A stretch of 64,000 nucleotides of DNA from Bacteroidaceae bacterium (GCA_024697945.1 JAILRU010000016.1:4588-68587); one strand, 5' to 3'; positions 1,065 through 64,000 are shown, numbered from the stretch's first letter. Notes: generated by a model from the sequence alone, not told the origin. Made by a program: numbers and translations.

Positions 1065-4000
1065 ATGAAGAAAAAGTTACTTCTGCTCTTGTGCCTGATA
1101 GTGACGGCAGGGAGCACCAGTGCCCAAAATGGCACGTGCAAGAACGGAACATGGAAGATTGACGACAACAAACTGACCGTTGACGTCAATGGTAAAATGG
1201 CCAACTACAAGGTTGTAGATGAAGGTACTAATGCACCATGGTATCAATACCGCGAAAATTTTAAGTCCATCCACATTTCATCCAATACCAAGACCATCGG
1301 AGAACGGGCTTTTTCGCTTTTATATATCAGTCGTGTAGTATCTGGAGGCGAGAATGTAGAACTCATCAAAGATTACGGTTTTAGTTCTTTTGATAATGTG
1401 AAAGTCCGTTTTCCTAAGGTCAAGGAAGTAGAGGAGCATGGCATCAGAGCAGGTTTTATCACTTTGCCGGTTGTGGAAACATTAGGCGAATATGCTTTAT
1501 CAAATTGTTCATATATTGACCTTGGCAGCAAAATCAAGACTTTGCAGCCGGGTTGCATGATATCAGAATCCCTGTGGAAAAGCGACGGCAGACCTTCCGT
1601 GTTCATGAGCAATCCCACACCTCCCGAATATACAATACGACACGACAGACCTTGGTATGAGGATATTGCTAATTTTTTCGGGAATGGTATAGGTGGTTTA
1701 GTTCAAGACCGGTTCTTTGAGTGCGATTTCCCTTTCGGCGACCAACCCAAAGACAATCCAGACGCGGGTATTATCATTGTTATTCCCGAGCAGTACTATG
1801 ATAACTATTTATCTCATTACAATACTCCCGGAGAGCCATATCATATGATACCAACGTGGAGCGATTATATGGCCGCGTACTATGTCAATAAAAACGACCA
1901 TACAGGTTGGTACGCAGAAACCAAGCCTTGTGGTAGAATGGAGAGAGGCGAACCCATCTACAATTCTTCTGATGAGTTCATAGGCTGGTGGTATTATTCC
2001 TGGGACATTAACAAAGGTGCTCCTGAAGATCTTCACGTCGGCTTCGTCGATGGCAAGGCGGTAAAGTATATGAGTTCCAATGTCGTCCCCTGGAAGAGTA
2101 TTCTTGGCAAGGTAACAACCATGTATCTGCATGGCGATGGCGATGAGGTCTTCACCATTCCTAGCGAGTGCTTTAAGGACGGTAAGGGTCTACAAGGCAT
2201 CAAGACCCTCTATTTAGAAAGTGCGACGGGCTTTGACATTGGCGAAGGAGCCTTTGAGGGTTGCACTGGCTTGAACATTGTGTCTGCCAACGACCATGAG
2301 GTTACTGTCGGTGCAAACGCCTTCAAGGGCTGCACGGCACTGTCTTCTGTTAAGGCATCGAAACTCACTGTTGGCGAAAATGCATTCAGCGGCTGCGCGG
2401 CACTTACCTCTGTTTCTGCGGATGTTGCCTTCGACGGACCCTCCGCCTTCCAGGGTTGCAATTTGGCGAACAGTAGGAACTTGAAGATTAAAGGCAGTAG
2501 CATTCCCGACTACACATTCAAAGGCAGCTCGATTTATAATGTTGACCTCAAGTATATAAAGAACATCGGCAAGGAGGCATTCTACGGCACGGGCATTAAG
2601 GATGTGAACTTGTCCAATTTCAAACAGTTGGGGGACCAGGCTTTTGCTAACAGCAAGGTGAAGACGCTGACGTTGGGAAATCAGACTCCCACAATCGGCA
2701 GCAAGGTATTCATGAACTGTACTAGTTTGACCGACATATATGTCACCGCAAACATCCCTGCCAACACCTATCCTTCGGATATGTTCGACGGTGTGAAGGT
2801 CGAGAACATTACCCTGCACGCCTCGCCCGAAGACTATGCCAACGGCTACGAAGGACACCCCGTCTGGGGCAAGATGATCGTCGATAAGCAGTTCACCTTC
2901 CCTGTGACAGGCTATTTCGCCGGTTACCCCTGGTCGCTGTCGTCCGACGGCGTCCTGAAGCTTGGTTGCAGTGACCAAAGCTGGGTCAGTGAATATAATG
3001 AAGGGGAATTGCCTTGGTCTCTCTATAGTGACTACATTACGGATGTTGTCATCGAAGACGGGTCTATCACCATCGACAAGAATGTGTTTGCAGGCTTGAA
3101 GAACCTGGTGAATGTCAGCATACCGCGCACCGTCAGGAATATCGGCGACAATGCCTTCAGGGGCTGTACCTCGCTGAAGAATGTCTATATCACCCGCGTA
3201 GAGACTCTGGGCAACAGCGTGTTCGAGGATTGTTCGTCGCTCGAGACCATCGAGCTTGGCGTGACGCTGAAGAGTGCTGGCGACTATGTCTTCCGCAACT
3301 GCAAAAACCTGATCTATATCGACAATATTACCGATACGCCTGCGAAGGTGACCGACCTGACCTTCAAGGACATCAAGAGCAGCGTCTATAACCAGCGCCG
3401 CAATGCACCAGCGAAGGTATCGGAAGAGGATGCAGCACAGTACAGCGTGACGCTGAAGATACCCGATGCCTACGTGACGAAGTACATGATGGACACCAAC
3501 TGGGGCAAGTTCCATATCCCATACGCCGACGACCGCGGCACATGGAAGAAGTGCGGCCAATTCGGCGACGGCATGTGGATTCTCTATGACGACGGCACGC
3601 TGCTCATCGCTGCTGACCAGGGACCTGGCGACAACTATGATGCAAGCCAGCCAAGCGTACTGGGCTTCAGCACCAGCCTGAACAATCCCGATGACCCCAT
3701 CAACTTCACCAAGGAGATTGAGATTACGGGCAACATCACCCACCTGAGCTGCTGCTTCCAGGACTTCAAGAACCTGGAAAGTGTAACGCTCTGCCCGTCG
3801 GTGAAGTCGCTCAACACCACCTTCATGGGCTGCACCAACCTGACCAACATCAATTTGGAGAACATAGAGACCATCGCTTACCAGACATTCGCAAACACGG
3901 GCCTCACCAGTCTCTCCCTTCCCAATACCAAGTCTATTGGCGAGGCTGCATTCACTGGCTGCACGAAGCTTGTCGCTGTCGCTTTAGGCTCCGGCTGTCA

Positions 4001-6356
4001 GGTAGGAAAGACAGCATTTGGCGGCTGTACGGCTCTTACCACCGTTGGCCTGAATGATGCCAACCTCGACAAAGCTGACAACTGCTTCAACGGTTGCACC
4101 AGCCTGACCAATGTCTATTACAATGGTGCCAACCTGCCACTTACCATCTTCAAGAACTGTAAGAAGCTGGAGAAGGTTGACCTTGGTACAGAAGTGAAGA
4201 CCATCCAGTGGAGCGCCTTCGAAGGTTGCACCGCCCTCAATAATGTATATTGCAACGCTATGACTCCGCCGACACTCGTCAAGGGTACGAAGCACGTCAT
4301 CGACTACTGGGACGGCGACGTGGCTTTCGGTCACGATGAAGATGCCTACGCCTTCGACGGTCTGATGCTCTCCAGCATCAACCTCCTTGTGCCTGCCGAC
4401 CTTATTCCTATATATAAGAAGGAGAATGTCTGGAAGGACATGCACATCGTGGGCGACGAAAGCTACGAAGAGCCGATGTTCCCCGTTGGCGGCAGTTTAG
4501 GCGAAATCGCTTGGTGGCAACTCGACGAAAAGGGCACGCTCACCATTACAGGTGAAGGCGAAATACCTTGGACGGACAATGGTTATGGCTGGTATCACAA
4601 GCTCGACCCGTGGGCATCGTTCACCAAGCACGTTATCTACACTGACGGCATCACCACTATCGCACCTGACATTACAAGCAAAAATACCGATTACAGTACG
4701 GTAGAGACCGTGGAGATTGGTGCCGACGTGACACGTATGAATACTGGCTCTATGCTCTATACCGACCTGACCGACATCTATTGCTTCGCCATCGAACCGC
4801 CGACATTCGGCAACCAAGGTTTTGGCGGATGCTTCAACGTGGAAGCTCTGAAAGCAAAAGGCACAACTCTGCACGTTCCCGACTTCTACGGCACACTGGA
4901 GAAGTACAAGAACAGTACGGGATGGGGATGGTTCATACGCATCGTTGCCGACCTGCCCACACGCAAGCCCGGCACCATCTATGTGGAGAGCCTCGCCCTC
5001 AAGCCCGACGCAAAGCACCTCGCCATCTTGCCCGACGAGCTTGGCAGCTACACCTACCAGATTGAGCCTGTCATCTATCCCGCTTGTGCCGACAACAAGG
5101 TGCTGACATGGACATCGGATGACGAGAGCGTCGCTACCGTCGATGAGAACGGACTTGTCACCATCCTTGCCTATCCCATTGACTACAACATTGTGACCAT
5201 TTCCGCCGTCACCACCGACGGTTCGAACAAGCGGGCAACGTGCGAGTTGTTCATCTACAATCCCGAAGAAGTGCAAGGTGGCATTCCCGCCACAGACCTC
5301 GCCATAAACCGCACCAGCATCACCTTGCTGAAGTCGTCGAAATCGACAGTAAAGGTATCGCTCACACCCGCCAACTCCAACTCGTATGTCTCCACTATGA
5401 TAGAAGGTCAGGGCACAATCGATGTCTTCGAGATGTTTGACCCGATGACTGGTGTCACCCAGAGGAATGTCTTCGAAATCACGCCGAGAGACTTGGGCAC
5501 CTTCGTCATCACCTTCCAAGCAACAGATGTTGATTGGGAACAGGTGAGCGAATACCCGACGGCAGTGCTTACCGTGAACGTCATTGACGACGTCATCTTC
5601 ACGGAGAAGAGCGCGGAAGGTGTGCCCGTGACCTATATCGTTAACAGCCTTGATGAGAACACCTGCTCGCTTTACGGCAAAAGGGAGCAAGAAATTTGGG
5701 TTGACCCCGAGACGGGTATCCCAACATGGGGTGAAGAGACATATTACACAGCCGTTGACACAGAGACAAAGGGCGACGTGACCATTCCTACGAAGGCAGG
5801 CGGCTACTTTGTGGTAGGCGTTAGCAACCTGGCTTTCAGGAACTGCAACAATCTGACGGCAGTCGGCTTCGACGAAGGCATCCAGTTCATCGGCGATCAA
5901 GCCTTCGAAGGCTGCGAATCGCTCCGCGAAGTCTATCTGCCCAGCACCATCCAGGGCTTCGGCATCAACTGCTTTGCTATGCTGAGCGAGTTGGGCGACG
6001 TCTATGTCTTTGGCCAGACACCTCCAGTTGGTGGCTTCGAGTATAACAACTATTGGTATGGAGAGGCAGAGAGCAGCATGGCCTTCGACGGCATCTACAC
6101 CATAGATGAAGAGAAGGGCGCAACGCTCCACGTTCCCGTTGGCTGCCGTGAAGCATGGGACATCTATCCCTGGAACATGTGGTTCAGGAACATCGTAGAA
6201 GATGCAATAGATGGCATTGGAACAATTGACAATGGACAGTTGATAATTGATAATCAGACTGACAGCTGGTACGACCTGAGTGGTCGCAAGCTCGGCAGCA
6301 AGCCCACAAAGTCTGGCCTCTACATCATGAATGGAAAGAAAATCGTGATTAAATAA
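1065..6356 (+). CDS. BspA-type leucine-rich-repeat surface protein with Big_2-like domains and T9SS C-terminal sorting domain (1763 aa)
   Basis: Signal peptide MKKKLLLLLCLIVTAGSTSAQ. Many IGE.AF.GCT.L LRR_5-type units. VATVDENGLVTILA Big_2-like segment. C-terminus WYDLSGRKLGSKPTKSGLYIMNGKKIVIK is a typical T9SS CTD. Confidence 0.85.
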   Translation: MKKKLLLLLCLIVTAGSTSAQNGTCKNGTWKIDDNKLTVDVNGKMANYKVVDEGTNAPWYQYRENFKSIHISSNTKTIGERAFSLLYISRVVSGGENVELIKDYGFSSFDNVKVRFPKVKEVEEHGIRAGFITLPVVETLGEYALSNCSYIDLGSKIKTLQPGCMISESLWKSDGRPSVFMSNPTPPEYTIRHDRPWYEDIANFFGNGIGGLVQDRFFECDFPFGDQPKDNPDAGIIIVIPEQYYDNYLSHYNTPGEPYHMIPTWSDYMAAYYVNKNDHTGWYAETKPCGRMERGEPIYNSSDEFIGWWYYSWDINKGAPEDLHVGFVDGKAVKYMSSNVVPWKSILGKVTTMYLHGDGDEVFTIPSECFKDGKGLQGIKTLYLESATGFDIGEGAFEGCTGLNIVSANDHEVTVGANAFKGCTALSSVKASKLTVGENAFSGCAALTSVSADVAFDGPSAFQGCNLANSRNLKIKGSSIPDYTFKGSSIYNVDLKYIKNIGKEAFYGTGIKDVNLSNFKQLGDQAFANSKVKTLTLGNQTPTIGSKVFMNCTSLTDIYVTANIPANTYPSDMFDGVKVENITLHASPEDYANGYEGHPVWGKMIVDKQFTFPVTGYFAGYPWSLSSDGVLKLGCSDQSWVSEYNEGELPWSLYSDYITDVVIEDGSITIDKNVFAGLKNLVNVSIPRTVRNIGDNAFRGCTSLKNVYITRVETLGNSVFEDCSSLETIELGVTLKSAGDYVFRNCKNLIYIDNITDTPAKVTDLTFKDIKSSVYNQRRNAPAKVSEEDAAQYSVTLKIPDAYVTKYMMDTNWGKFHIPYADDRGTWKKCGQFGDGMWILYDDGTLLIAADQGPGDNYDASQPSVLGFSTSLNNPDDPINFTKEIEITGNITHLSCCFQDFKNLESVTLCPSVKSLNTTFMGCTNLTNINLENIETIAYQTFANTGLTSLSLPNTKSIGEAAFTGCTKLVAVALGSGCQVGKTAFGGCTALTTVGLNDANLDKADNCFNGCTSLTNVYYNGANLPLTIFKNCKKLEKVDLGTEVKTIQWSAFEGCTALNNVYCNAMTPPTLVKGTKHVIDYWDGDVAFGHDEDAYAFDGLMLSSINLLVPADLIPIYKKENVWKDMHIVGDESYEEPMFPVGGSLGEIAWWQLDEKGTLTITGEGEIPWTDNGYGWYHKLDPWASFTKHVIYTDGITTIAPDITSKNTDYSTVETVEIGADVTRMNTGSMLYTDLTDIYCFAIEPPTFGNQGFGGCFNVEALKAKGTTLHVPDFYGTLEKYKNSTGWGWFIRIVADLPTRKPGTIYVESLALKPDAKHLAILPDELGSYTYQIEPVIYPACADNKVLTWTSDDESVATVDENGLVTILAYPIDYNIVTISAVTTDGSNKRATCELFIYNPEEVQGGIPATDLAINRTSITLLKSSKSTVKVSLTPANSNSYVSTMIEGQGTIDVFEMFDPMTGVTQRNVFEITPRDLGTFVITFQATDVDWEQVSEYPTAVLTVNVIDDVIFTEKSAEGVPVTYIVNSLDENTCSLYGKREQEIWVDPETGIPTWGEETYYTAVDTETKGDVTIPTKAGGYFVVGVSNLAFRNCNNLTAVGFDEGIQFIGDQAFEGCESLREVYLPSTIQGFGINCFAMLSELGDVYVFGQTPPVGGFEYNNYWYGEAESSMAFDGIYTIDEEKGATLHVPVGCREAWDIYPWNMWFRNIVEDAIDGIGTIDNGQLIIDNQTDSWYDLSGRKLGSKPTKSGLYIMNGKKIVIK
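6224..6258 (+). repeat. degenerate AATTGAT heptamer run inside the CDS, just before the T9SS CTD
   Basis: aattgac aatggac agttgat aattgat aatcaga encodes IDNGQLIIDNQ directly upstream of WYDLSGRK. Confidence 0.7.
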
Positions 6357-6491: not shown

Positions 6492-6545
6492 CGTAGTATA
6501 TAAAAAGAAAAACGAGCTTTTCTTTGTATTTCTCTCACTTATTCG

Positions 6546-6553
6546 TACCTTTG
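6546..6553 (+). promoter_or_regulatory. Bacteroidota -7 box TAccTTTG upstream of ddh
   Basis: Matches TAnnTTTG; 84 nt upstream of the ATG. Confidence 0.5.
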
Positions 6554-6636
6554 TCACCGATTTCAGGATAAACGCAAGCAAAAAGTAACATAATTCATCA
6601 ATATTTTAACTTTTAACTCTTAAACATTCCTAAGTT

Positions 6637-7536
6637 ATGGACAAATTGAGAATCGCCGTAGTGGGCTACGGAAACATCGGTAAATATGCTCTGCAGGCTT
6701 TGCAGGCTGCTCCAGATATGGAAATAGCAGGCATAGTGCGCCGCAACGGCGCTGCCAACAAACCAGCCGAACTGGCTGACTATGCCGTGGTGAAGGATAT
6801 CAAGGAACTGGGCAAGGTGGACGTCGCCATCCTGGCCACGCCGACACGCTCGGTTGAGGAACACGCCCTGAAATGTCTGGCATTGGGTATCAACACGGTC
6901 GATAGCTTCGACATCCATACCTCCATCCTCGACCTGCGCCGCAGTCTCTCGGCTGCCGCCAAGGAGCATGGGGCTGTAAGCATCATCTCAGCCGGATGGG
7001 ACCCAGGCAGCGACAGCATCGTCCGCACGCTGATGGAGAGCCTCGCGCCCAAGGGCATCACCTATACGAATTTCGGTCCGGGCCGCAGCATGGGACACAG
7101 CGTCTGCGTCCGCAGCAAGGCGGGCGTGAAGGATGCGCTCTCGATGACTATCCCCGTGGGCGAAGGCATCCACCGCCGCATGGTGTATGTGGAACTGGAA
7201 GAGGGTGCGAGTCTGGAAGAGGTGACGAAAGCTATCAAGGCCGACCCCTACTTCGCCAACGACGAGACGCACGTCTTCCAGGTGGAAAGCGTTGATGCAC
7301 TGAACGATGTCGGCCACGGCGTGAACCTGGTCCGCAAGGGTGTGAGCGGTCAGACGCACAACCAGCTCTTCGAGTTCAACATGAAGATTAACAACCCCGC
7401 CCTCACGGCTCAGGTGCTCGTCAATGCGGCCCGTGCCACGATGAAGCAGCAGCCCGGTGCTTATACGATGATTGAGATTCCCGTCATCGACTATCTCCCA
7501 GGCAATAGGGAGGAAATCATTGCACACCTTGTGTAA
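6637..7536 (+). CDS. ddh: meso-diaminopimelate D-dehydrogenase
   Basis: 299 aa. N-terminal Rossmann IAVVGYGNIGK. ISAGWDPG and FGPGRSMGHS motifs typical of Ddh. Confidence 0.9.
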   Translation: MDKLRIAVVGYGNIGKYALQALQAAPDMEIAGIVRRNGAANKPAELADYAVVKDIKELGKVDVAILATPTRSVEEHALKCLALGINTVDSFDIHTSILDLRRSLSAAAKEHGAVSIISAGWDPGSDSIVRTLMESLAPKGITYTNFGPGRSMGHSVCVRSKAGVKDALSMTIPVGEGIHRRMVYVELEEGASLEEVTKAIKADPYFANDETHVFQVESVDALNDVGHGVNLVRKGVSGQTHNQLFEFNMKINNPALTAQVLVNAARATMKQQPGAYTMIEIPVIDYLPGNREEIIAHLV

Positions 7537-7568
7537 TTGATAATTGACAATTGATAATTGATAATTGG
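7534..7568 (+). repeat. tandem heptamer array (TAATTGA)x5 starting on the ddh stop codon
   Basis: taattga taattga caattga taattga taattgg; the first TAA is the ddh stop. Confidence 0.9.
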
Positions 7569-13435: not shown

Positions 13436-16327
13436 TCACCTGATGACTTTCTTGCCATCAATAATGTAAATGCCCCTTGGCAATTTTGAATTTTGATTAT
13501 TGATTTTTGCTCCGCCTGCGCCTGAGCTTTGCGAAGAATTATCAAAGCGGCGTCCGCTTACGTCATAGACGGCATCCTCATTTCGAATTGTGAATTGTGA
13601 ATTATGAATTAATTTTATTCCGTCCTCGATGTCGCTGAACTTCAGTACAAGGCTTTGGATGTCGGGATTCTCGAGTGTAAGGTAGGCCTGATTAGGCTCG
13701 ATTGTCTCGTCGGTAGGGGCATAGAAACCCGGAATGTCGTTCTGACCTTGCAACGTAAGCACGTTAGTGGGACTGGCGGGCATGAAGAGACCCTGAAGAG
13801 CAGTGGCTGTGGAGGGTTGTGCCGTGAAACCTTCACCGTATGTCAGTGAGGCTGTTTCACTTTCACCCCACAGCACGACAGGTGTGCCGGCAGGCACGGC
13901 GTTCCCGACATTCGTGAGGAGCACATAGCCCTCACTGATAGCATCCTCTCCTTTTTCGAGGATATAGACCTTGGCATCGCCCACCGTCACGTCGTAGGGA
14001 AAGCAAAGCGTCGTATAGAATCCTTCACCGATAGGCGTCAACGTTACTGGTGCAGTGGGCACTGTCTCCGCGATGATTTGCGAGCCCAGGTCGGTCTTGG
14101 CATTCTCGCTTTCCCATACTTGCAGATAGCCGTGGGGACCTCCGTGAGTATTGACATAATAGTCTTTTTGGTCCATGAGGCTAAGAGAGAAACCGTCGTT
14201 GTTGGCGTGTACTGTCCAACGGAAGTCCCCTTCACGCAGGACGGTATTCTTGATGTCCGAGACGCCTTGCACGGAAGTGGCCGTACCGTCAACCGTCAGC
14301 GAATAGTCCTCCCCCATGAGCTTGTTGACAATCTTGAAACCCTCAATAGGATTCCCTTTGAATGCCCACTGATAAGCATCGCTGGCACGCACGAGGTCTG
14401 TGGCATAGAGTTCCTCCTCCGGATACTCCCCTACAGATGCTTCGTCGTAAGCGTGAGGGTGGTACGGCTCACGGCCTTCCCATCCGACATAGCGGCCAAG
14501 ACACCCTGCCTTGAGGTTGTACCAGGTATCCGTATCGGAGCTTATCTTGAAAGGGGCGCTGCCAGCCCACGTGACGGTGACTTTGATGGATGTGGAGGTG
14601 ATGTTCTTGGGCGAATAGGCGTAGTTGCAGAAGTCGCGAATATAGGCTTCGGGGAGTGCCGCTGCGGTGCTCAGCTCGCCCGGGACGATGGCTTCGCCGC
14701 ATTTCTCGCCTCCGAAGTAGAGGTTGTAGGTGACGTTGATGGTGTTCTCTATTTCCCAGATGTACTGCATGTCGCTGGCATACTCGGCCACGGGACCCTC
14801 GTCGCCCGTGTTCACCGTCCAGAAGGCCTGCGATGCCGCCTCCTGGTTGCCCGTCCCCTTGGCATTGGTGGCACGGACGGCATACTTGCCCTCGCTGTCC
14901 ATGAAGAAGACCTGTGCCTCCCAGTCCTTGCGCTTGCTGCTCATGTTGGTCCGGAGGCGTCCGGAGTTGTACACCACGCTACCGCTGCTCACCTGAGGGC
15001 TGGTGAAGTAGGCGTTTTGCAGGTTGAAGCCGTAGGTATAGGCTGCACCCTCGACACGCGAGAAGGAGAAGATGCTGGCACCCGACGCGTCGGCAGTCAG
15101 GAGTCCGCGGGTGGTGAGGTAGTACTTCGTGTCGCCGACAGTAGTGGAGACCACATACTTGTTCCCAGGCGTGATGGAGGCCAGGGCGCGGAAATAGTCG
15201 GCATGGGGACTTTCCTTGAAGTTGTTGGCGATGATGGCGTCGGTCAGCGCCTGTCCCTTCACCTGGTAATTGCCGGAAACATCCTCGGCAGCATAGTCCA
15301 TCAACACGATGCCCGTGGAACCCGTATGGCTGTTCAGATAGTCGATGACAACAGGATTCTGCGTGGCTGCATTGTCGCGATACCCGTCGCTGGTTGCTAC
15401 CGTGTTTCCGAAAATCGATGCAGTCTTTGAATAGCCCGATGTCTGATTGACCACCCACAAGCTGGGGTTCGTATTCTCCGTGCAGGAGAACTGCAGCATG
15501 CGCTGGATGCTCGCACTCTTTGTGGCGGGAGCATCGCTGGCCGAGACATCATAGAAGTCCTGCACATACAGTGGACCTTGCGTGCCGATACCATTAATCT
15601 TGGCACCTTGCTGATTGGCGAAGTTCGGATTGAAGCCCCAACCAGAGATGTAGCCACCGACAGGATTGGTGCCGTAGTTATCACGGCAAAGGATAAGGAG
15701 CTTACCCCGCATGTCGCCAAGCTTGGCATCCGGATTGAAGTTCACGGCATGGCTCTTCGTAGGATTGCTGTTGAGCAGTTCCTTCATCTTCGTGCCCCAA
15801 GAATCGTTGTTGTCGTCGCCTTCCGACTCATGGCGGATAAAGATGATACAAGTTTCCGTAGGATGACTGTCCAATAGGCCACAGAGCGTGGTAAGGGCAT
15901 CGTCGAAGTAAAGGTTCGTCGAGATGAGGCCATGATAGATACGCAGGCGGGAGCCATCCACGGCCGGACGCAGGTCGAAAGCACGAATGCCGCTGTTCCA
16001 CTGCTCGGTCAATGTCTTTTCCTGCGTAACCGCGTAAGTCTTGCCGCTCACAATCACATAAGCGTTGTTCACGCCGTGTCCAGTCCCCGCATCGTGAGTG
16101 CCTGGGATGGATATCTGACTGATAAACGTGTCATCCGACACCCCCCCCATCCAGGCTGCATTGTCGGCCAGCATCCGAAGCGTGCCCATTCCCTGTAGAA
16201 GGATTACCATCAAGGCGACAAGGCTTGAACCTCTTAAACCCCTTGAACCCCTTGAACCCCTTGAACCTCTTAAACCTCTTAAACCCCTTGAACCTCTTAT
16301 ACCCCTTTCACTTTTCATAGTATTCAT
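13436..16327 (-). CDS. secreted PI-PLC X-domain-like phospholipase C family protein with T9SS C-terminal sorting domain (963 aa)
   Basis: ISIPGTHDAGT...RAFDLRP...RIYHG pattern of PLC-like phosphodiesterases near the N-terminus. C-terminus AVYDVSGRR...LPRGIYIIDGKKVIR. Confidence 0.75.
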   Translation of the reverse strand: MNTMKSERGIRGSRGLRGLRGSRGSRGSRGLRGSSLVALMVILLQGMGTLRMLADNAAWMGGVSDDTFISQISIPGTHDAGTGHGVNNAYVIVSGKTYAVTQEKTLTEQWNSGIRAFDLRPAVDGSRLRIYHGLISTNLYFDDALTTLCGLLDSHPTETCIIFIRHESEGDDNNDSWGTKMKELLNSNPTKSHAVNFNPDAKLGDMRGKLLILCRDNYGTNPVGGYISGWGFNPNFANQQGAKINGIGTQGPLYVQDFYDVSASDAPATKSASIQRMLQFSCTENTNPSLWVVNQTSGYSKTASIFGNTVATSDGYRDNAATQNPVVIDYLNSHTGSTGIVLMDYAAEDVSGNYQVKGQALTDAIIANNFKESPHADYFRALASITPGNKYVVSTTVGDTKYYLTTRGLLTADASGASIFSFSRVEGAAYTYGFNLQNAYFTSPQVSSGSVVYNSGRLRTNMSSKRKDWEAQVFFMDSEGKYAVRATNAKGTGNQEAASQAFWTVNTGDEGPVAEYASDMQYIWEIENTINVTYNLYFGGEKCGEAIVPGELSTAAALPEAYIRDFCNYAYSPKNITSTSIKVTVTWAGSAPFKISSDTDTWYNLKAGCLGRYVGWEGREPYHPHAYDEASVGEYPEEELYATDLVRASDAYQWAFKGNPIEGFKIVNKLMGEDYSLTVDGTATSVQGVSDIKNTVLREGDFRWTVHANNDGFSLSLMDQKDYYVNTHGGPHGYLQVWESENAKTDLGSQIIAETVPTAPVTLTPIGEGFYTTLCFPYDVTVGDAKVYILEKGEDAISEGYVLLTNVGNAVPAGTPVVLWGESETASLTYGEGFTAQPSTATALQGLFMPASPTNVLTLQGQNDIPGFYAPTDETIEPNQAYLTLENPDIQSLVLKFSDIEDGIKLIHNSQFTIRNEDAVYDVSGRRFDNSSQSSGAGGAKINNQNSKLPRGIYIIDGKKVIR
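13477..13545 (-). repeat. 69-nt block shared with 27779-27847, inserted inside the T9SS CTD
   Basis: Reverse complement is ttgataattcttcgcaaagctcaggcgcaggcggagcaaaa + heptamers + ttgccaa. It encodes FDNSSQSSGAGGAKINNQNSKLP. Confidence 0.85.
13584..13611 (-). repeat. heptamer run (AATTCAC family) in the pre-CTD linker
   Basis: Plus strand cgaattg tgaattg tgaatta tgaatta; encodes LIHNSQFTIRN. Confidence 0.8.
16223..16303 (-). repeat. nine tandem 9-mers (CCTTGAACC / TCTTAAACC) encoding (RGS/RGL)n at the N-terminus of the PI-PLC-like protein
   Basis: Direct reading: 9 consecutive 9-nt units. Protein is MNTMKSERGIRGSRGLRGLRGSRGSRGSRGLRGSS followed by the hydrophobic signal core. Confidence 0.9.
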
Positions 16328-16491: not shown

Positions 16492-16524
16492 CAGCCGCAA
16501 TCGATAAAAAGGTTGCTTTTGGAT

Positions 16525-27400: not shown

Positions 27401-27888
27401 TTGAGGTGCCCGACAAGGTGACGTCCATCGGTGAGGACGCCTTCGCCTATTGCGGTTCGCTGCAGACGGTGATAATCGGCAAGGGAACAAAGACATTGTC
27501 GAAGGGTGCCTTCTACGACTCGAAGGTCAAGGACGTCTATGTCAAGGCCTTGACACCGCCAAGCACCAGCAGCTATCTCTTCAGCAGCAATCCCGTCATC
27601 CACGTCTATGCCAGCGCCCTCGACAAGTACAAGGCCTCCGGATGGGCAGAATTCGGCACCATCGTGGGCGACCTCGACGACGACTTCGTGGATGCCATCA
27701 GGGAAGTTCCAGAGTACTCCGAGAGCTCTGAGAGCTCTGAGAGCTCAGGCCGTTGCTACGATCTCAGCGGCCGCCGCATTGATAATTCTTCGCAAAGCTC
27801 AGGCGCAGGCGGAGCAAAATTCAAAATTCAAAATTCAAAATTGCCAAAAGGAATCTACATCCAGGACGGCAGAAAGATACTTCGCTAA
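24487..27888 (+). CDS. M60-like (enhancin-type) zinc metallopeptidase flanked by two BspA-LRR modules, with T9SS CTD (1133 aa)
   Basis: HEXXH as GTAHEFGHQLQS in the central domain. LRR modules at about aa 45-235 and 880-1075. C-terminus CYDLSGRR...LPKGIYIQDGRKILR. Confidence 0.8.
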   Translation: MKTTNLVRLFTAALFYLAATNNWAATEIHVETAGTLSSLLTSTEKELKVTGFINGSDIKYIRQLVTAGTVTSLDWSEVRIVSGGTAYFESYKTTDDIIGEKMFYKCSQLQQMVLPSTATEIKSNAFANTGLKSIDIPNSVRSLGEDAFAYCGSLATVVIGKKVNKLSKGSFYASEVQRAYVKPLTPPSPPSYLFSTNPKIYVYAEALADYRELGWSSYGTLYGTLENYYPQESDEDSSLAALCTQFFEDAACTQLKAEYQAMSDEDLNEELRVKSEELTDDGQLSMFTAMILKIKNNTWAAYEQEFRIHDYQAYSDAKTWNQKLWARCASYMGNPTGILTRSDGEQLYVFVDEDVPADATLYCAGIGMDQMFNTGKAGQKLKKGLNIIDGEANKLYYILYTADTKTMTKRVSEWPAMKIHIEGGKVDGYFDASRHKDADYKKLLNAAANTTFVVKGKHSVMNIRTSVLKQTYPNKIAKAIEALDSLSVWEKDLFGISEAVANGEKAGAPYYLTGGDAFYPGYFNNPTYVDNDSPGSVAHSTEYGIHISLDASKTFLNPYATNYDESGTAHEFGHQLQSPIMLEGTTEGSNDLFSCYCRLFMGHRSSMGEPLSSMMERYVEGEPFYWRGPNYGIIRMYYSLYLYYHQAQKNTSFFPELFKELRRDKIAPYGSNTNNSGLKFVRKVCEIAQEDLTDFFTVYGFFEPTSNRYLECYGDHYVTTRKADIATTKKKIAQYEKKNREIIFIEDRVEHVPTTNYIPRDGQYRIGESIGTYGDVGQFTSYLPGACEPSDYVYYQSDSLLSMVGTGGVGFLVLDEEGNIKYAANSRSFCLPSTLHSSPLTLYSCDADGTLHEVERRAGGTEAVELEAPGRLESALQNENVIKLILKGRIHGKDIKYMRQLIQDNCLQAIDLDQAQIIGNNTYAYYQSYKTTKDVMGEYAFHGFRKLVFMRLPQTITTIGTNAFSKSGLRMIEVPDKVTSIGEDAFAYCGSLQTVIIGKGTKTLSKGAFYDSKVKDVYVKALTPPSTSSYLFSSNPVIHVYASALDKYKASGWAEFGTIVGDLDDDFVDAIREVPEYSESSESSESSGRCYDLSGRRIDNSSQSSGAGGAKFKIQNSKLPKGIYIQDGRKILR
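25294..25321 (+). repeat. in-frame heptamer run GAGTTAA GAGTTAA GAGTGAA GAATTAA
   Basis: Encodes ELRVKSEEL. The third unit carries a T-to-G change at 25312, exactly where TAA would be in frame. Confidence 0.85.
27721..27747 (+). repeat. three tandem 9-mers GAGAGCTCT encoding SESSESSES before the CTD
   Basis: Direct reading. Confidence 0.9.
27779..27847 (+). repeat. 69-nt block shared with 13477-13545, inside the T9SS CTD, ending in (TTCAAAA)x3
   Basis: ttgataattcttcgcaaagctcaggcgcaggcggagcaaaa ttcaaaa ttcaaaa ttcaaaa ttgccaa encodes IDNSSQSSGAGGAKFKIQNSKLP. Confidence 0.85.
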
Positions 27889-49870: not shown

Positions 49871-52219
49871 ATGAGACAATATCTTTTGTCCTTCCTGCTG
49901 ATGATGCTCGGTGCCTTGCAGCTGCAAGCTACCGACGTCATCTATGGAAACTGTCACTACCGCGAGATAGACGGGCGCTATGCAGGTTACCGCAAGACGG
50001 AGAGCTATACCACCTTCGAGACCGACGACCGTATCATTCTGGTCTATTGTCTGCGCATCCCCCGCGCCACCGTGTCGGGTTCAGCCAGAATTATTCCCAA
50101 AGTGACAGGCGACGTTACGCTCAATGTTCGTGTCAAGAATTGCGAAACCGACGAAGTGCTTCTTGAACACAGCGTCACACAGGCTTGCACAAGAAATCAG
50201 GCAGTTAGTTTACAGATAATCCCAGAGATGAGTTTCCCTGCAGACACATGGTATCGCGTTGAGATTCAGGCTCCAAATGGTTACAGCCGCATTATACGTC
50301 TCAATGAGCTTGACTTCGAACGCTCGGGCGGACAACCCGTCATCGATGCCCACCTGCGCGGCTTCCCCACACCTGCCACTCACCTCTGGTTTGGACACTC
50401 AACGGCAACCAATGCGCCGCAGAACGAGTCCTACGAGTGGTGCTACCAGGAGGTGCTCATGCCCAAGCAATGGGCAACCATCAACACCTACCTCATGACG
50501 CTTGGCATCACAGGCGGCTATATGGGCATACAGATGTGCGGACAGACGGTGAAGAACGAGAATGGCCAGTCTACCGACACCATTCCTTCGTCCTATCAGC
50601 ATCGGGTCCTCTTCTCCATTTGGGACAATGGCGACACAGACGTCACGCCTAACCTCGCCACATACCTCCGCGCTGGCGCTTTGGCTTATGGCGACGATGT
50701 CACCATCAATCGCTTCGGCAACGAGGGTACTGGCTGCCAGTCAATGGTATATAATGGTAAGTGGGAACCAGGAGAATGGGTACAGTTCCTGACCTGTGCA
50801 CGTCCTGAGGAACGTGCCATCACCCTGAAGGACAAGGACGGCAACGACAGCATCATCCGCTATCCATGCTCCCTGCTCTCTACATGGTACAAGGCCATAG
50901 ATGACCCCGAGTGGCACTACATGGCCACTATCCGCCACAGTGGCGAGTCGCACTACTGGAACACCTGGTATTCCTTTATAGAGAACTGGGCAGACACCGG
51001 TGGCGAACTCTTCCGCCGTGCCTACTACCGCAACAACTACCAGCGTTCCGTTGGTAGCGGCAAGTGGTACTTCGTCAATAAAGTTGATCTCTTCAGCCAG
51101 ACCGATTACCAGAGTTTCATCAACAGCGGAGAGATTACCACTCGCCATCGTCGTATGGACTACGGACACGGACTTGCCAGCGACGTGCCCCGTGCTTTCT
51201 ACATGCAGGCAGGAGGCTACGGACAGCCCAAGGACTCTGCCAACGTACTGCCATTGGTCGAAGACCACAGCTGCGTGGAGAGCATTAACCTCGACTCTCT
51301 CATTGCCACCTTGCAGAATGCCTATCAGGCCGACTCCAGGGCATCGATGACGACACTCGTCTCCACTCGTAGCTCACTGAAATCTATGAAAGAGCTGGTA
51401 GATGACCTCATTGCCAAGACCAACCGCTTCGAAGGCTATACAGAAGAAGCTATGGCTCCCATCCGCGAATTGGCTCAGACGGAATACACTCTGTCGGAGA
51501 TGAAGCAAGCATTGAAGACGATGGCAACGAACAATCAAGTCCTGCGCTACGGCAATACCGTCAAGATTACCCACATCTGCTCCTTCCGTGCCTATCTGAT
51601 AGGAACTGGTGAAGAAGTCCTGGCCATGCGAGGTAACGAGGTAGTCTGCGTACCTCAGAATGAAGCTGACGTCACAGACCCTAACAACCATTGGATTGTG
51701 CTGCGTCACGACGACACGAGCTACTACTGCCTCTACAATCTCGGCACTGGTCTTTATCTCACTATCGGTTCGAAGTTGGCAGCGGAAGACATCCCCCATA
51801 AGCTAAACATCAACTTCACCGGTGGTAAGTTCTTGATTCGCGAGGGCGGCAACAAGTACGTTGGCTTCAGTCCCGACAAAGAGGCCATCTCTGTAGGCGC
51901 AGCCAAGGCAGCCCGCTTCGAACTGCTCGATAACTACTATCTCACGCCGCAGACCGAGCTCGTGAACGAACTGCTCGAGAAAACGACTCCCGATGGGGTT
52001 GCCACAGGCATTGATGAAATTCACAATTCACAATTCACAATTCATAATGATGGTGAGGTCGAAGGAGAGGCTTCTCTTGCCGACGACATCGTTGCAGTCT
52101 ATTATTACGACCTCAATGGCCAGCGCGTAGGCTACGACCTTCAGCCCGGCAAGCCCGTCATCGCCCACATCATCCTCCGCAACGGCGCCTCCATCGTCAG
52201 AAAGATTGTAGCAAAGTAA
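49871..52219 (+). CDS. secreted DUF3472-like domain protein with a divergent T9SS-type C-terminal domain (782 aa)
   Basis: Signal peptide. GGYMGIQ...VLFSIWDNGDTD resembles the DUF3472 core (from memory). C-terminus VAVYYYDLNGQRV...VRKIVAK. Confidence 0.5.
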   Translation: MRQYLLSFLLMMLGALQLQATDVIYGNCHYREIDGRYAGYRKTESYTTFETDDRIILVYCLRIPRATVSGSARIIPKVTGDVTLNVRVKNCETDEVLLEHSVTQACTRNQAVSLQIIPEMSFPADTWYRVEIQAPNGYSRIIRLNELDFERSGGQPVIDAHLRGFPTPATHLWFGHSTATNAPQNESYEWCYQEVLMPKQWATINTYLMTLGITGGYMGIQMCGQTVKNENGQSTDTIPSSYQHRVLFSIWDNGDTDVTPNLATYLRAGALAYGDDVTINRFGNEGTGCQSMVYNGKWEPGEWVQFLTCARPEERAITLKDKDGNDSIIRYPCSLLSTWYKAIDDPEWHYMATIRHSGESHYWNTWYSFIENWADTGGELFRRAYYRNNYQRSVGSGKWYFVNKVDLFSQTDYQSFINSGEITTRHRRMDYGHGLASDVPRAFYMQAGGYGQPKDSANVLPLVEDHSCVESINLDSLIATLQNAYQADSRASMTTLVSTRSSLKSMKELVDDLIAKTNRFEGYTEEAMAPIRELAQTEYTLSEMKQALKTMATNNQVLRYGNTVKITHICSFRAYLIGTGEEVLAMRGNEVVCVPQNEADVTDPNNHWIVLRHDDTSYYCLYNLGTGLYLTIGSKLAAEDIPHKLNINFTGGKFLIREGGNKYVGFSPDKEAISVGAAKAARFELLDNYYLTPQTELVNELLEKTTPDGVATGIDEIHNSQFTIHNDGEVEGEASLADDIVAVYYYDLNGQRVGYDLQPGKPVIAHIILRNGASIVRKIVAK
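52017..52046 (+). repeat. in-frame (ATTCACA)x3 plus ATTCATA in the pre-CTD linker
   Basis: Encodes IHNSQFTIHN. Confidence 0.9.
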
Positions 52220-59190: not shown

Positions 59191-59289
59191 GTTGAAAAGT
59201 TGAAAAGTTAAAAAGTTAAAAAAGTGAAGAGTTAAGGATAATTCTTCATTCTTCTTTATAATTTTGAATTTTGAATTTTGAATTTTGAA
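59191..59289. repeat. about 100 nt of consecutive word arrays between divergent promoters
   Basis: gttgaaaa x2, gttaaaaa x2, gtgaagagttaagg, attcttc x2, (attttga)x4. Confidence 0.85.
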
Positions 59290-59299
59290 TTATATGTTG

Positions 59300-63338: not shown

Positions 63339-64000
63339 TCACTCAACCGTGAATTTTTTCCCGTTCTCGATGTAGATTCCACGTGCAGGTTTGCCAGAGA
63401 GACGACGGCCCTGAAGGTCATAGACGGCATCATCATTTATCATTTGTCCTTTATCATTTAGACATGGAGCGTCGCTGATTCCATCTACCATTTCGTCCGT
63501 GAGGTCGCCAACGATGGTGCCGTACTTGGCCCAGTTTGAGGCCTTGTACTTCTCAAGGGCACTGGCATAGACATGAATAGTGGGATTGCTATTGAAGATG
63601 TAATCCCCGAGGGTCGGAGGCATGAGAGCCTTCACGTATGCATCCTTGACAGGAGAATTATAGAAGACTCCCTGGCTCATTGTCTTGACCTTTTTGCCGA
63701 TAATGACCGTGGCGAGGGTGCTGCTGCCACCGAAAGCTTCGAGACCGATACTGGTCACAGCATCGGGAATATCTATCATCCTAAGTCCAGAGAAGCGGAA
63801 GGAGCGGTCTCCTATCGTGGTTGTCTTCAGGGGCAGACGCATGGAGATGAGCTTCTTGAAACTGTCGAAGGCATAGGGTCCTATCTCGTTGAGCGATGTC
63901 GTATAGCTCTGGTAATAGGCATAATTGCCCGATACAATCTTGGCTTCGGAGAGGTCGATGGATGCGAGGTTTCCTTCCGCGATGAGCTTGCGCAGGTAGC
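63339..64000 (-). CDS. BspA-type LRR protein with T9SS CTD, 5' end outside the window
   Basis: The frame stays open to the window edge. The module is about 60 percent identical to the C-terminal LRR module of the M60 protein. C-terminus AVYDLQGRRLSGKPARGIYIENGKKFTVE. Confidence 0.8.
   Translation of the reverse strand, partial: YLRKLIAEGNLASIDLSEAKIVSGNYAYYQSYTTSLNEIGPYAFDSFKKLISMRLPLKTTTIGDRSFRFSGLRMIDIPDAVTSIGLEAFGGSSTLATVIIGKKVKTMSQGVFYNSPVKDAYVKALMPPTLGDYIFNSNPTIHVYASALEKYKASNWAKYGTIVGDLTDEMVDGISDAPCLNDKGQMINDDAVYDLQGRRLSGKPARGIYIENGKKFTVE
63434..63462 (-). repeat. TCATTTA-family heptamer run in the pre-CTD linker
   Basis: Plus strand tcattta tcatttg tccttta tcatttag; encodes LNDKGQMINDD. 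Confidence 0.85.

What the first reader, a model, noticed from the sequence alone, without database searches (positions are those of the whole stretch)
6224..6258. Every T9SS cargo in the window has a different word-repeat exactly at the passenger/CTD junction
The segment immediately upstream of the first CTD strand (..YDLxGR..) is always a repeat array, but a different one in each gene. IDNGQLIIDNQ comes from AATTGAT (6224). IHNSQFTIRN comes from AATTCAC (13584). SESSESSES comes from a 9-mer (27721). IHNSQFTIHN comes from ATTCACA (52017). LNDKGQMINDD comes from TCATTTA (63434). Five of five at the same architectural position is unlikely by chance. Inference: the arrays either act as flexible linkers or mark junctions where CTD cassettes were joined to passengers (microhomology-mediated shuffling).
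Basis: partly seen in the sequence, partly recalled or inferred. Interest (0 to 1): 0.65.

Follow-up and report, generated by a model that had tools for sequence, protein, structure and literature searches.

The report
Heptamer repeats fill T9SS signal spacers
In a rumen Prevotella-like genome, the 7-base tandem repeats that litter the whole genome pile up 30-100 fold in the disordered spacer just ahead of the type IX secretion tail of surface proteins, most likely because that spacer accepts almost any in-frame filler; this is a real, tidy pattern but not a new kind of system.

Summary
All five genes end in a short T9SS-type C-terminal signal. Each has a tandem array between the predicted PorU cleavage motif (D-G/A-I) and motif B (YDLxGR). 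Four arrays are heptanucleotide (about 4-4.7 copies) and one is a 9-mer. Chance of at least 4 of 5 is about 4e-8.

The arrays are not a CTD-specific device. Period-7 arrays are the dominant tandem-repeat class across the window, in 853 kb of related rumen loci, and in 891 kb from other gut Bacteroidales. The same units recur in intergenic DNA, on stop codons and in signal peptides.

Enrichment at the junction holds more widely but is not universal:
- 29/110 related tails versus 18/3539 control windows.
- 14/139 tails from an array-blind genome scan versus 4/3909 control windows.

Close homologues keep both flanks but carry unrelated junction peptides. AlphaFold2 gives the spacer low confidence.

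Best reading: a disordered, cleaved-off spacer that acts as a sink for the lineage's main in-frame indel type. It works as a linker, but this is not shown to be an adaptation.

I found no frameshifted OFF alleles, so phase variation is unsupported. Passenger ends and CTDs do have decoupled histories. However, arrays are not shown to be the recombination breakpoints, so cassette joining is unproven.

The parts
6222..6254 (+). Heptanucleotide array (AATTGAC/T-like, 4.7 copies, 80% match) encoding T-IDNGQLIIDN. The second unit is AATGGAC, which turns an in-frame TGA into GGA.
   Evidence: TRF; codon read
6210..6218 (+). Gene 1 predicted PorU cleavage-site motif, D-G-I
   Evidence: Codon read; motif definition from PMC11969387
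6270..6356 (+). Gene 1 short-CTD core: motif B YDLSGRK (6270-6290), motif D GLYI (6315-6326), motif E/basic tail GKKIVIK, then stop. G-I to the C-terminus is 47 aa.
   Evidence: short-CTD length range 40-51 aa
13585..13610 (-). Heptanucleotide array (AATTCAC on the coding strand, 3.7 copies) encoding IHNSQFTIRN in gene 2, which spans 13436-16327 on the minus strand. The D-G-I motif is at 13616-13624 and motif B at 13547-13567.
   Evidence: TRF
13481..13543 (-). Insert in the motif B-D loop of gene 2 (DNSSQSSGAGGAKINNQNSKL). It contains a second heptamer array (13482-13509, AATTCAA-like). It also contains a 39-nt patch (13505-13543) identical to one in gene 3.
27717..27746 (+). 9-nt array (3.3 copies) encoding SESSESSES in gene 3. 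The D-A-I motif is at 27691-27699 and motif B at 27757-27777.
   Evidence: TRF
27781..27843 (+). Insert in the motif B-D loop of gene 3. It has the identical 39-nt patch (27781-27819) and a perfect AATTCAA x4 array (27815-27842) encoding KFKIQNSK.
52018..52048 (+). Heptanucleotide array (AATTCAC, 4.4 copies, 95% match) encoding IHNSQFTIHN in gene 4. The T-G-I motif is at 52004-52012. Motif B (YDLNGQR) is at 52106-52126, 19 codons after the array. G-I to the C-terminus is 70 aa, so this is the long/medium CTD class.
   Evidence: TRF
63432..63460 (-). Heptanucleotide array (AAATGAT on the coding strand, 4.1 copies) encoding LNDKGQMINDD in gene 5, with an in-frame TGA replaced by GGA. The D-G-I motif is at 63477-63485, motif B at 63402-63422, motif D at 63369-63380, and the stop at 63339-63341.
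   Evidence: TRF; AF2 model
7534..7567 (+). Same unit family as the gene 1 array (TAATTGA x4.9), but outside any CTD. It starts on the stop codon of gene 6637-7536 and has stops in all three frames. This shows the arrays are a genome-wide class.
59260..59291 (+). Perfect AATTTTG x4.6 array, the reverse complement of the AATTCAA unit used in the CTD loops of genes 2 and 3. It is intergenic, 3 nt before a start codon.

Best explanation
**What the genes are.** The five genes are type IX secretion cargo with Prevotella-type short C-terminal signals; gene 4 has a longer variant.

**Where the arrays sit.** They lie in the spacer between the predicted PorU cleavage motif (x-G/A-I) and the first CTD strand (YDLxGR). 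This spacer is disordered. By inference from P. intermedia, it is removed together with the CTD. Its sequence therefore matters little, provided it stays in frame, has no stop codon and is hydrophilic.

**Where the arrays come from.** In this rumen Prevotella-like lineage the main source of small insertions is heptanucleotide tandem arrays, typically 3-5 copies. These are presumably made by replication slippage.

**How the pattern arises.** Selection removes arrays from folded protein regions. It leaves them in intergenic DNA, on gene ends, in signal-peptide cores, in the motif B-D loop and, above all, in the CTD spacer.
- Only the open orientation survives in genes. In the CTD zone that is usually the A-rich strand, which gives N/K/Q/E/D/I-rich peptides.
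- In-frame TGAs are found mutated to GGA.
- In the one clear pair compared, growth was by three units (21 nt = 7 aa).

**Result.** A hypervariable, repeat-derived linker whose length stays near 18-21 residues.

**Shown:**
- the position of the arrays;
- the enrichment;
- that the arrays are a genome-wide class;
- low model confidence in the spacer;
- hypervariability between conserved flanks;
- length stability among orthologues.

**Inferred:**
- PorU cleavage upstream of the arrays;
- slippage as the origin;
- near-neutrality of the spacer.
For: **Period 7 is specifically over-represented.**
- Window: 8 stringent arrays, against 0 for periods 4-6 and 0 in shuffles.
- Rumen loci: 120 period-7 arrays, against 8 (period 6), 11 (period 8) and 18 (period 9).
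- Other gut Bacteroidales: 65 period-7 arrays, against 14, 9 and 12.

**The same units occur inside and outside genes**.
- AATTCAA: 13482, 27815 and 34002 (coding); 32283 and 59260 (intergenic).
- AATTGAY: 6222 (coding); 7534 (after a stop codon).
- AAATGAT: 63432, 41219 and 53651 (coding); 16648 and 18135 (intergenic).

**Density by compartment, arrays per kb.**
- Metagenome set: intergenic 0.64, gene interior 0.048, first 40 codons 0.064, last 40 codons of non-CTD genes 0.054, CTD zone 1.63.
- Genome set: intergenic 0.32, coding 0.019, CTD zone 0.57.

**Junction versus passenger windows.**
- 29/110 versus 18/3539 (p = 5e-34).
- 14/139 versus 4/3909 in a sample chosen without reference to arrays (p = 4e-18).

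**Further support.**
- Loci with a junction array have 2.2 times the background array density (0.116 versus 0.053 per kb, p = 0.027).
- The spacer has pLDDT 46-52, against about 80 in the flanks. The CTD models as short strands at motifs B, D and E.
- Homologues 60-70% identical on both sides carry unrelated junction peptides. Among pairs with both flanks at least 75% identical, 37% have junctions below 35% identical.
- L079 (MVNGLRKG) versus L055 (MFNGQYSMVNGLRKG) differ by exactly 21 nt.
- CTD-zone arrays are 42% A on the sense strand, and 50 of 58 have A>T. The antisense strand of the coding arrays has stops in all three frames.
- The codons of IHNSQFTIHN follow the 7-nt period at all but one synonymous site. 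Protein-level selection alone would not produce that.
- Published work: the short-CTD architecture and its cleavage-site position (PMC11969387), and a disordered RgpB linker in which insertions and substitutions do not affect domain structure (PMC4804311).
- Heptanucleotide repeats are already reported as the commonest long SSR class in many bacteria, with polymerase slippage proposed as the cause (Mrazek 2007, as summarised in PMC4679880).
Against: - Array density in the CTD zone is 1.8-2.5 times higher than in intergenic DNA. This holds even though coding DNA allows only in-frame, stop-free events. Pure tolerance predicts at most parity. Part of the excess is shared descent among paralogues, but that was not corrected for.
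- The same unit, in the same phase, after the same G-I-x-E context (IHNSQFTIHN) occurs in three unrelated passenger/CTD combinations: genes 2 and 4, and L010. Independent origin does not easily explain this.
- Spacer length clusters at 18 and 21 residues whether or not an array is present. Arrays therefore seem to replace sequence rather than add to it, which simple slippage does not explain.
- No disorder-matched control (other linkers in the same proteins) was run.
- Cleavage upstream of the arrays is inferred from P. intermedia, not measured here.
Confidence: 0.62

Rival explanations
1. Portable recombination junctions. Identical or near-identical arrays at the passenger/CTD boundary provide homology or microhomology patches. 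Through these, CTD modules, or short patches of them, are exchanged between paralogues and unrelated passengers. On this view the arrays mark, and promote, module shuffling.
For: - Passenger-end and CTD similarities are uncorrelated in 83 LRR-family tails (Mantel r = 0.07, p = 0.12). CTD versus junction gives r = 0.36.
- Window gene 3 has a passenger end like gene 5, but a CTD-loop insert whose first 39 nt match unrelated gene 2 exactly.
- The same AATTCAC array sits at the junction of three unrelated genes.
- Assembly graphs break exactly at the arrays, because the same 31-mers occur at many loci.
Against: - Genes that share an array share neither the passenger nor the CTD (gene 2 versus gene 4). 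Nothing is seen travelling with the array.
- The arrays belong to a class that is just as common in intergenic DNA, where no module joining is at stake.
- The longest exact match between the two AATTCAC arrays is about 19-20 nt, by my own reading of the sequences.
- The one chimera seen (L046) joins at the cleavage motif, not in an array.
- The Mantel result rests on a 27-aa CTD, and ordinary gene conversion among tandem paralogues would also produce it.
Confidence: 0.15
2. Phase variation of localisation. Slippage by one or two heptamer units shifts the reading frame just before the CTD. The cargo is still made but can no longer be exported or anchored by the T9SS. This would be a stochastic on/off switch for surface display.
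For: - The unit length is not a multiple of three, and the arrays sit immediately upstream of the export signal.
- Several arrays are perfect (27815-27842; 52018-52048 at 95%).
- Some arrays at the same junction position in related genes show the same base change in several units. L005 has 3 of 4 units changed and L024 is a perfect ATGGCCA array. This implies some contraction and re-expansion over evolutionary time.
Against: - No CTD was found out of frame because of an array among 130 + 135 CTD matches searched in all frames.
- Six distinct junction sequences carrying the MVNGQWS array (eight loci) all have the same 4.6-copy length and differ only by point substitutions.
- There is no indel at 6222-6254 in contigs from four metagenomes.
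- Copy numbers are low (3-5) and many arrays are degenerate.
- The same arrays occur where no switch is possible.
Confidence: 0.07
3. A selected peptide motif. The junction peptide (for example I-x-N-x-Q-[FL]-x-I-x-N) is a conserved functional element of this CTD family, for instance a PorU or PorV contact. On this view the DNA periodicity is incidental.
For: - Four of the five window junctions can be aligned in the same phase.
- Similar peptides recur across homologues (IHNSQFT, IQNSEFR, IDNGQLT, IKNEKLK).
Against: - Close homologues replace the motif with unrelated sequences.
- The codons keep the 7-nt period at synonymous sites.
- The same DNA units occur in non-coding DNA and, in the opposite orientation, as signal-peptide cores.
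- The segment models as disordered.
- 74-90% of junctions have no detectable array.
Confidence: 0.06

Closest known systems
Short T9SS C-terminal domains of Prevotella intermedia (Ye et al. 2025, PMC11969387)
   Same: - C-terminal position.
- A cleavage motif ending in G-I.
- Motif B (Y-x-L-x-G-R/K), motif D (G-x-Y-I) and a basic motif E.
- Total length 40-51 aa; genes 1 and 5 are 47 aa.
- A predicted three-stranded sheet preceded by a flexible linker.
- LRR-rich cargo.
   Different: - In the sections of that paper I read, repeat-derived spacers are not mentioned.
- In this rumen lineage 10-26% of spacers, and 4-5 of 5 in the window, are recognisable tandem arrays.
- Some motif B-D loops carry array inserts that lengthen the CTD to 61-64 aa.
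- Cleavage and glycosylation are not measured here.
Long simple sequence repeats with heptanucleotide units in prokaryotes. Sources: Mrazek et al. 2007 as summarised in PMC4679880; TAACTGA repeats of Beggiatoaceae, Cyanobacteria and Bacteroidetes; cyanobacterial STRR heptamers (the last from my own knowledge).
   Same: - Period 7 is the favoured unit length.
- Short arrays of a few copies.
- Strong intergenic bias.
- Placement in genes is limited by stop codons in the unit. [quoted passage not shown]
   Different: - Many different A/T-rich units are used here (AATTCAA, AATTCAC, AATTGAY, AAATGAT, AATGGTC and others), not a single word.
- There is a specific, quantified sink in the T9SS signal spacer.
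- No link to start codons or to a regulator was examined.
Contingency loci: phase-variable simple sequence repeats in ORFs of Neisseria, Haemophilus, Moraxella and others
   Same: A tandem repeat whose unit is not a multiple of three, inside an ORF that encodes a surface protein.
   Different: - It sits at the 3' end, just before the export signal, rather than near the 5' end.
- Only 3-5 copies.
- No length polymorphism and no OFF alleles were seen in the data available.
IgSF-CTD interdomain linker of P. gingivalis RgpB (de Diego et al. 2016, PMC4804311)
   Same: A disordered linker between the last passenger domain and the CTD. [quoted passage not shown]
   Different: - That is a long (seven-strand) CTD in a different genus.
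- Its linker is short and not repeat-derived.

Membership tests
T9SS type A sorting domain (TIGR04183 / Pfam PF18962 Por_Secre_tail) | Significant match to the curated HMM | tested here: not met
   The best match is TIGR04183 in gene 2: E = 0.53, 10.3 bits, cut-off 23. There is no PF18962 hit in any of the five genes. For comparison, Ye et al. built dedicated short- and long-CTD HMMs to predict P. intermedia cargo.
Prevotella short T9SS CTD (Ye et al. 2025) | At the extreme C-terminus, with motif B (Y-x-L-x-G-R/K), motif D (G-x-Y-I) and a basic motif E in order | tested here: met
   Genes 1, 2, 3 and 5 have YD[LV]xGR[RK] ... G[IL]YI ... [NDG]G[KR]K and then the stop. Gene 4 has motif B and a basic C-terminus, but its motif D is atypical and its CTD is 70 aa, so it belongs to the long/medium class.
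Prevotella short T9SS CTD (Ye et al. 2025) | Cleavage-site motif (consensus PT/GI, with Ile most conserved) in a flexible linker upstream of motif B; 40-51 aa from the cleavage site to the C-terminus | tested here: met
   The motifs are D-G-I (genes 1, 2, 5), T-G-I (gene 4) and D-A-I (gene 3). Genes 1 and 5 have 47 aa from G-I to the end. Genes 2 and 3 have 61 and 64 aa because of loop inserts. In 102 related tails the G-I to Y distance peaks at 18 and 21 aa, with 26-28 aa after motif B. The linker has pLDDT below 50.
Prevotella short T9SS CTD (Ye et al. 2025) | N-terminal signal peptide on the cargo | tested here: met
   Read by eye from the translations; no predictor was run. Gene 1 starts MKKKLLLLLCLIVTAGSTSAQ, gene 3 MKTTNLVRLFTAALFYLAATNNWA, and gene 4 MRQYLLSFLLMMLGALQLQA. 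Gene 2 has a hydrophobic stretch after a repeat-coded N-terminus. The N-terminus of gene 5 lies outside the window.
Prevotella short T9SS CTD (Ye et al. 2025) | Predicted small beta-sheet fold (three strands) | tested here: met
   AF2 on the gene 5 tail with 23 homologues gives pLDDT about 80 over residues 91-120. Strands fall at 93-94, 100-101, 108-112 and 115-119. Overall model quality is modest (mean pLDDT 67.5).
Prevotella short T9SS CTD (Ye et al. 2025) | T9SS-dependent export, PorU cleavage and C-terminal glycan attachment; T9SS machinery present in the genome | not testable with these tools
   This needs proteomics or genetics. The machinery genes were not looked for outside the 64-kb window.
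Heptanucleotide long simple sequence repeats (Mrazek-type LSSR) | Period 7 over-represented relative to neighbouring periods and to shuffled sequence, with an intergenic bias | tested here: met
   Searches show the excess of period 7. Intergenic density is 13-17 times coding density.
Phase-variable contingency locus | Repeat-number polymorphism between strains or within populations that produces ON and OFF reading frames | tested here: not met
   No array-caused frameshifted CTD was found among 265 CTD matches in all frames. Orthologous arrays have constant length. There is no indel at 6222-6254 in four metagenomes. Caveat: only consensus contigs were available, they break at arrays, and there were no raw reads.

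The most novel reading that the evidence does not exclude
The spacer arrays are not passive filler. The T9SS signal spacer would be a preferred site of heptamer-array birth and turnover because the arrays are useful there in one of three ways:
- as rewritable, length-preserving spacers;
- as shared homology patches that let CTD modules, or patches of them, move between cargo genes;
- as low-rate frameshift switches that uncouple a surface protein from export.

Three observations leave room for this. Array density in the CTD zone exceeds that of intergenic DNA despite the in-frame constraint. The same array recurs in the same phase in unrelated genes. Passenger and CTD histories are decoupled.
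Probability: 0.12. Interest if true: 0.65.

Novelty: new member of a known kind. Interest (0 to 1): 0.36.

Why it matters
**For T9SS biology.**
- The stretch between the sortase cleavage site and the first CTD strand appears to be essentially free sequence in a large group of gut and rumen Bacteroidales. That is useful when predicting cargo and cleavage sites, and when designing secretion tags.
- In this window the standard CTD models did not detect these short tails. In addition, repeat inserts lengthen the motif B-D loop in genes 2 and 3.

**For genome evolution.**
- This is a clean, quantified case of one lineage-specific mutational mode (7-nt tandem arrays) being filtered by protein architecture. 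The array map effectively marks where a protein tolerates insertions.

**For metagenomics.**
- These arrays are shared 31-mers at which Logan contigs end, in both the cargo genes (52018-52048) and intergenic DNA (46112-46142). This fragments assemblies.

If the minority readings (recombination patch or localisation switch) were true, it would matter more. It would be a new way of diversifying or switching surface display.

Tried and rejected
1. **Standard CTD HMMs** (TIGR04183, PF18962): not significant. I used the published short-CTD motif definition instead.
2. **Phase variation.**
   - I searched all frames for CTDs cut off from their ORFs. Two turned up in the metagenome set: one at a contig edge, and one (L046) a large out-of-frame deletion chimera whose joint is at the cleavage motif.
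   - Three turned up in the genome set, none next to an array.
3. **Copy-number polymorphism from public runs.**
   - Only Logan contigs were available, with no raw reads.
   - The next call showed that contigs end at the arrays, so length variants cannot be read.
4. **'Concerted evolution' of arrays.** I first read ATGGTCA / ATGTTCA / ATGGCCA arrays as homogenised variants. The DNA alignment shows mostly single-unit point changes at constant length, with only L005 and L024 changed in several units. I therefore downgraded the idea to 'occasional re-expansion'.
5. **'Fixed array length of about 32 nt' as a sign of a one-step insertion mechanism.** Lengths are 7n + 3-5 nt, with n = 3 and 4 commonest. 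TRF's score threshold under-counts n = 3, and intergenic arrays have a longer tail. This is not compelling.
6. **The 39-nt patch shared by genes 2 and 3 as a mobile mini-element.** It is absent from all 79 related loci. Only a loosely similar 'SGAGG' segment was seen, in L045/L046.
7. **Exact-protein look-up of gene 4** to name the source genome: not on record.


Full report
**1. What is at the coordinates**

The window holds five ORFs whose products end in ...YDLxGR[RK]...G[IL]YIx[ND]GKKxxx*:
- 1065-6356 (+), with BspA-type LRR and Big_2 domains;
- 13436-16327 (-);
- 24487-27888 (+), with LRR and peptidase M60 domains;
- 49871-52219 (+), with DUF3472 and a longer tail;
- 63339 to beyond 64000 (-), with LRR domains, cut by the window edge.

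No other ORF in the window has such a tail.

- 6222-6254: period 7, 4.7 copies.
- 13585-13610: period 7, 3.7 copies.
- 27717-27746: period 9, 3.3 copies.
- 52018-52048: period 7, 4.4 copies.
- 63432-63460: period 7, 4.1 copies.

The codon-by-codon read gives the quoted peptides. Because 7 is not a multiple of 3, each heptamer array is read in all three frames in turn. It therefore yields a 7-residue peptide period; for example, ATTCACA gives IHNSQFT. The codons of IHNSQFTIHN follow the 7-nt period at every synonymous site but one. The repeat is therefore a property of the DNA, not a by-product of selection on the peptide.

**2. What the tails are**

TIGR04183 and PF18962 do not reach significance. 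The tails do match the 'short CTD' class defined experimentally in Prevotella intermedia (PMC11969387). That class has:
- a cleavage-site motif (consensus PT/GI);
- a short flexible stretch;
- motif B (Y..G[RK]), motif D (GxYI) and a basic motif E;
- 40-51 aa in all;
- a fold of a single three-stranded sheet.

In the window the motif is D-G-I, T-G-I or D-A-I, and each array starts 2-7 residues after it. Genes 1 and 5 measure 47 aa from G-I to the C-terminus.

An AlphaFold2 model of the gene 5 tail, built with 23 homologues, gives pLDDT about 80 for the last LRR element and for the CTD. It gives 46-52 over residues 71-90, which cover the cleavage motif and the array-coded segment. Short strands fall at motifs B, D and E.

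The arrays therefore lie in the disordered spacer. By inference from P. intermedia, that spacer leaves with the CTD.

**3. The arrays are a genome-wide class**

Across the window, period 7 is the only over-represented repeat period apart from a slight excess at period 3. There are 8 stringent period-7 arrays, against 0 for periods 4-6 and 0 in shuffles. TRF lists about 35 period-7 rows.

The arrays sit in several contexts:
- in intergenic DNA;
- on or just after stop codons (7534 TAATTGA x4.9; 23254 TAGTCCA; 9065; 33864);
- in signal-peptide cores in the T-rich orientation (41219; 53651);
- in an N-terminal segment of a radical-SAM-like gene (34002);
- in the CTD zones.

The same units recur in and out of genes: AATTCAA, AATTGAY, AAATGAT, GAAGAAT and AGTTGAG.

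The sequence is natural. It is held by many bovine and other ruminant gut metagenomes. The array words themselves have assembly depths in the hundreds to thousands, and contigs end at them.

Heptanucleotide repeats are already reported as the commonest long SSR class in many bacterial genomes, with polymerase slippage proposed as the cause (Mrazek 2007, as summarised in PMC4679880).

**4. Is the junction special? Tests beyond the window**

*(a) Protein homologues.* I retrieved 81 homologues of the gene 5 tail. They keep the passenger end (...FGTIVGDLTDEIIDGI) and the CTD. Between them they carry very different peptides, many of which are translations of heptamer arrays:
- MVNGQWS = ATGGTCA
- IEHSTLT
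- KNEKVKV
- IDNGQLT
- NSKFKIQ

A protein-level test asked how often a window of 10 residues matches a perfect heptamer-array peptide at 7 or more positions. This was true for 19 of 77 junctions, against 20 of 13,326 control windows.

*(b) Related rumen loci.* In 79 loci (853 kb), period 7 again dominates: 120 arrays, against 8, 11 and 18 for periods 6, 8 and 9. Among 110 non-redundant short-CTD tails:
- 29 have a period-7 array in the 75 nt before motif B;
- 8 have one inside the CTD, mostly in the motif B-D loop;
- 18 of 3,539 control windows in the same ORFs have one (Fisher p = 5e-34).

*(c) Array-blind genome scan.* I scanned one genome per species with a DNA pattern that encodes only motifs B, D and E, so the sample was blind to arrays. 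It returned 120 loci, nearly all labelled Prevotella, Prevotellaceae, Bacteroidaceae, Bacteroidales, Muribaculaceae, Alloprevotella or Hallella, and mostly gut MAGs. In 139 tails attached to many different passengers, 14 junctions carry a period-7 array, against 4 of 3,909 control windows (p = 4e-18).

*Density by compartment (arrays per kb):*

| Compartment | Metagenome set | Genome set |
|---|---|---|
| Intergenic | 0.64 | 0.32 |
| Gene interior / coding | 0.048 | 0.019 |
| First 40 codons | 0.064 | not computed |
| Last 40 codons, non-CTD genes | 0.054 | not computed |
| CTD zone | 1.63 | 0.57 |

Loci with a junction array have 2.2 times the background array density. The window is at the high end of background density, 0.27 per kb. 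This helps explain why 4-5 of 5 junctions are hit there. Within the window, the chance of at least 4 of 5 is about 4e-8.

**5. How the arrays behave**

- **Orientation.** In genes only the open orientation is found; the other strand has stops in all three frames. In CTD zones the sense strand is A-rich (42% A; 50 of 58 arrays have A>T). This gives hydrophilic N/K/Q/E/D/I peptides.
- **Stop avoidance.** Where a perfect array would put TGA in frame, the sequence reads GGA instead (genes 1 and 5).
- **Growth step.** L079 and L055 differ by exactly 21 nt, that is three units or 7 aa, in the motif B-D loop.
- **Length stability.** Six distinct junction sequences carrying the MVNGQWS array all have 4.6 copies. 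They differ mostly by single-unit point changes; only L005 and L024 show changes in several units. Arrays are therefore inherited and stable in length, with occasional re-expansion.
- **No OFF alleles.** No CTD is thrown out of frame by an array in 265 CTD matches searched in all frames.
- **Spacer length.** It clusters at 18 and 21 residues whether or not an array is present.

**6. Mosaicism**

- Within 83 LRR-family tails, passenger-end and CTD similarities are uncorrelated (Mantel r = 0.07, p = 0.12).
- The junction tracks the CTD (r = 0.36) more than the passenger (r = 0.20).
- Of pairs with both flanks at least 75% identical, 37% have junctions below 35% identical.
- In the window, gene 3 has a passenger end like gene 5. 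Its CTD-loop insert, however, matches unrelated gene 2 exactly over its first 39 nt, inside otherwise diverged CTDs.

Exchange across the junction therefore happens. Nothing shows that arrays are the breakpoints.

**7. Interpretation**

The best-supported account is a filter model. A lineage-wide slippage process makes heptamer arrays. Selection removes them from folded regions. The disordered, probably cleaved-off CTD spacer, and to a lesser degree the motif B-D loop, keeps them.

Three observations are not fully explained:
- Array density in the CTD zone exceeds the intergenic density.
- The same array occurs in the same phase in unrelated genes.
- Spacer length is preserved.

These keep a minority probability on recombination-patch or switch models.

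**8. Verdict**

- The 'flexible linker' reading is supported as a description.
- 'CTD cassette joints' is unproven.
- The components (short CTDs, heptanucleotide SSRs) are known. I did not find their association described, but I did not search the literature for it specifically. It is a modest addition rather than a new system.

Noticed in passing
window 6502-6555: A segment of about 54 nt upstream of gene 6637-7536 (ttctttgtatttctctcacttattcgtacctttgtcaccgatttcagg). Its assembly depth is in the thousands in four rumen metagenomes, against about 10 for its flanks. It is therefore a very widespread short element, possibly a promoter or leader module.
   Followed up: no
window 45153-45203, 45319-45391, 52249-52311; also 20 arrays in L001-L079: A second repeat class with period 22 (2.3-3.3 copies, with a different unit at each site) in intergenic DNA. 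One lies just downstream of the gene 4 stop codon. The nature of this class is unknown.
   Followed up: no
window 16224-16307 (minus strand, N-terminus of gene 13436-16327): A 9-nt/27-nt array (CTTGAACCC x9.3) encodes RGSRGLRGL... at the extreme N-terminus, ahead of the hydrophobic signal segment. It gives a weak collagen-like Pfam hit.
   Followed up: partly
window 41219-41243 and 53651-53690: Heptamer arrays of the AAATGAT family, in the T-rich orientation, form the hydrophobic cores of two signal peptides (FSFIICHLSF; FIIIHLSFVICYL). The same unit in the A-rich orientation makes the hydrophilic CTD spacer of gene 5.
   Followed up: partly
window 34002-34031: A perfect AATTCAA x4.3 array encodes NSKFKIQNSKF at about codon 38-48 of a radical-SAM-like gene (CNLRCQYCYY motif). 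This is an in-frame array insertion in a cytoplasmic enzyme.
   Followed up: no
window 7534-7567, 9065-9093, 23254-23285, 33864-33886, 56522-56539: Arrays that overlap or directly follow stop codons. At least 7534-7567, 9065-9093 and 33864-33886 have a stop in all three frames (TAATTGA, AAAGTGA, ATTAAAG). They may define gene ends or simply be tolerated there.
   Followed up: partly
window 16330-18497: A stretch of about 2.2 kb with only one small ORF and a very high density of short tandem arrays with periods 7, 8, 11, 20 and 37, including an 11-mer x5.5 at 17390-17450. It is unusually repeat-rich non-coding DNA.
   Followed up: no
window 13505-13543 and 27781-27819; L045 1-60, L046 about 830-900: An identical 39-nt patch (GATAATTCTTCGCAAAGCTCAGGCGCAGGCGGAGCAAAA) lies in the CTD loops of two unrelated genes. 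A related 'TCAGGCGCAGGCGGA' (SGAGG) segment lies in the pre-motif-B spacer of LRR genes from other metagenomes. It is a recurrent filler of unknown origin.
   Followed up: partly
L046 about 700-1010: The signal peptide and first ~95 residues of an LRR gene are joined out of frame to the cleavage-motif/spacer/CTD of a neighbouring gene. This is either a large-deletion pseudogene or an assembly chimera.
   Followed up: partly
L015, L016, L080 (CTD tails): One AAATGGT array family (13-16 copies at about 70% match) spans both the spacer and the motif B-D loop (…MVNGKWSNGKC-YDLTGK-MVNGKWLNGKWSNGKS-IKGIYI). Motif B therefore sits embedded in repeat sequence.
   Followed up: no
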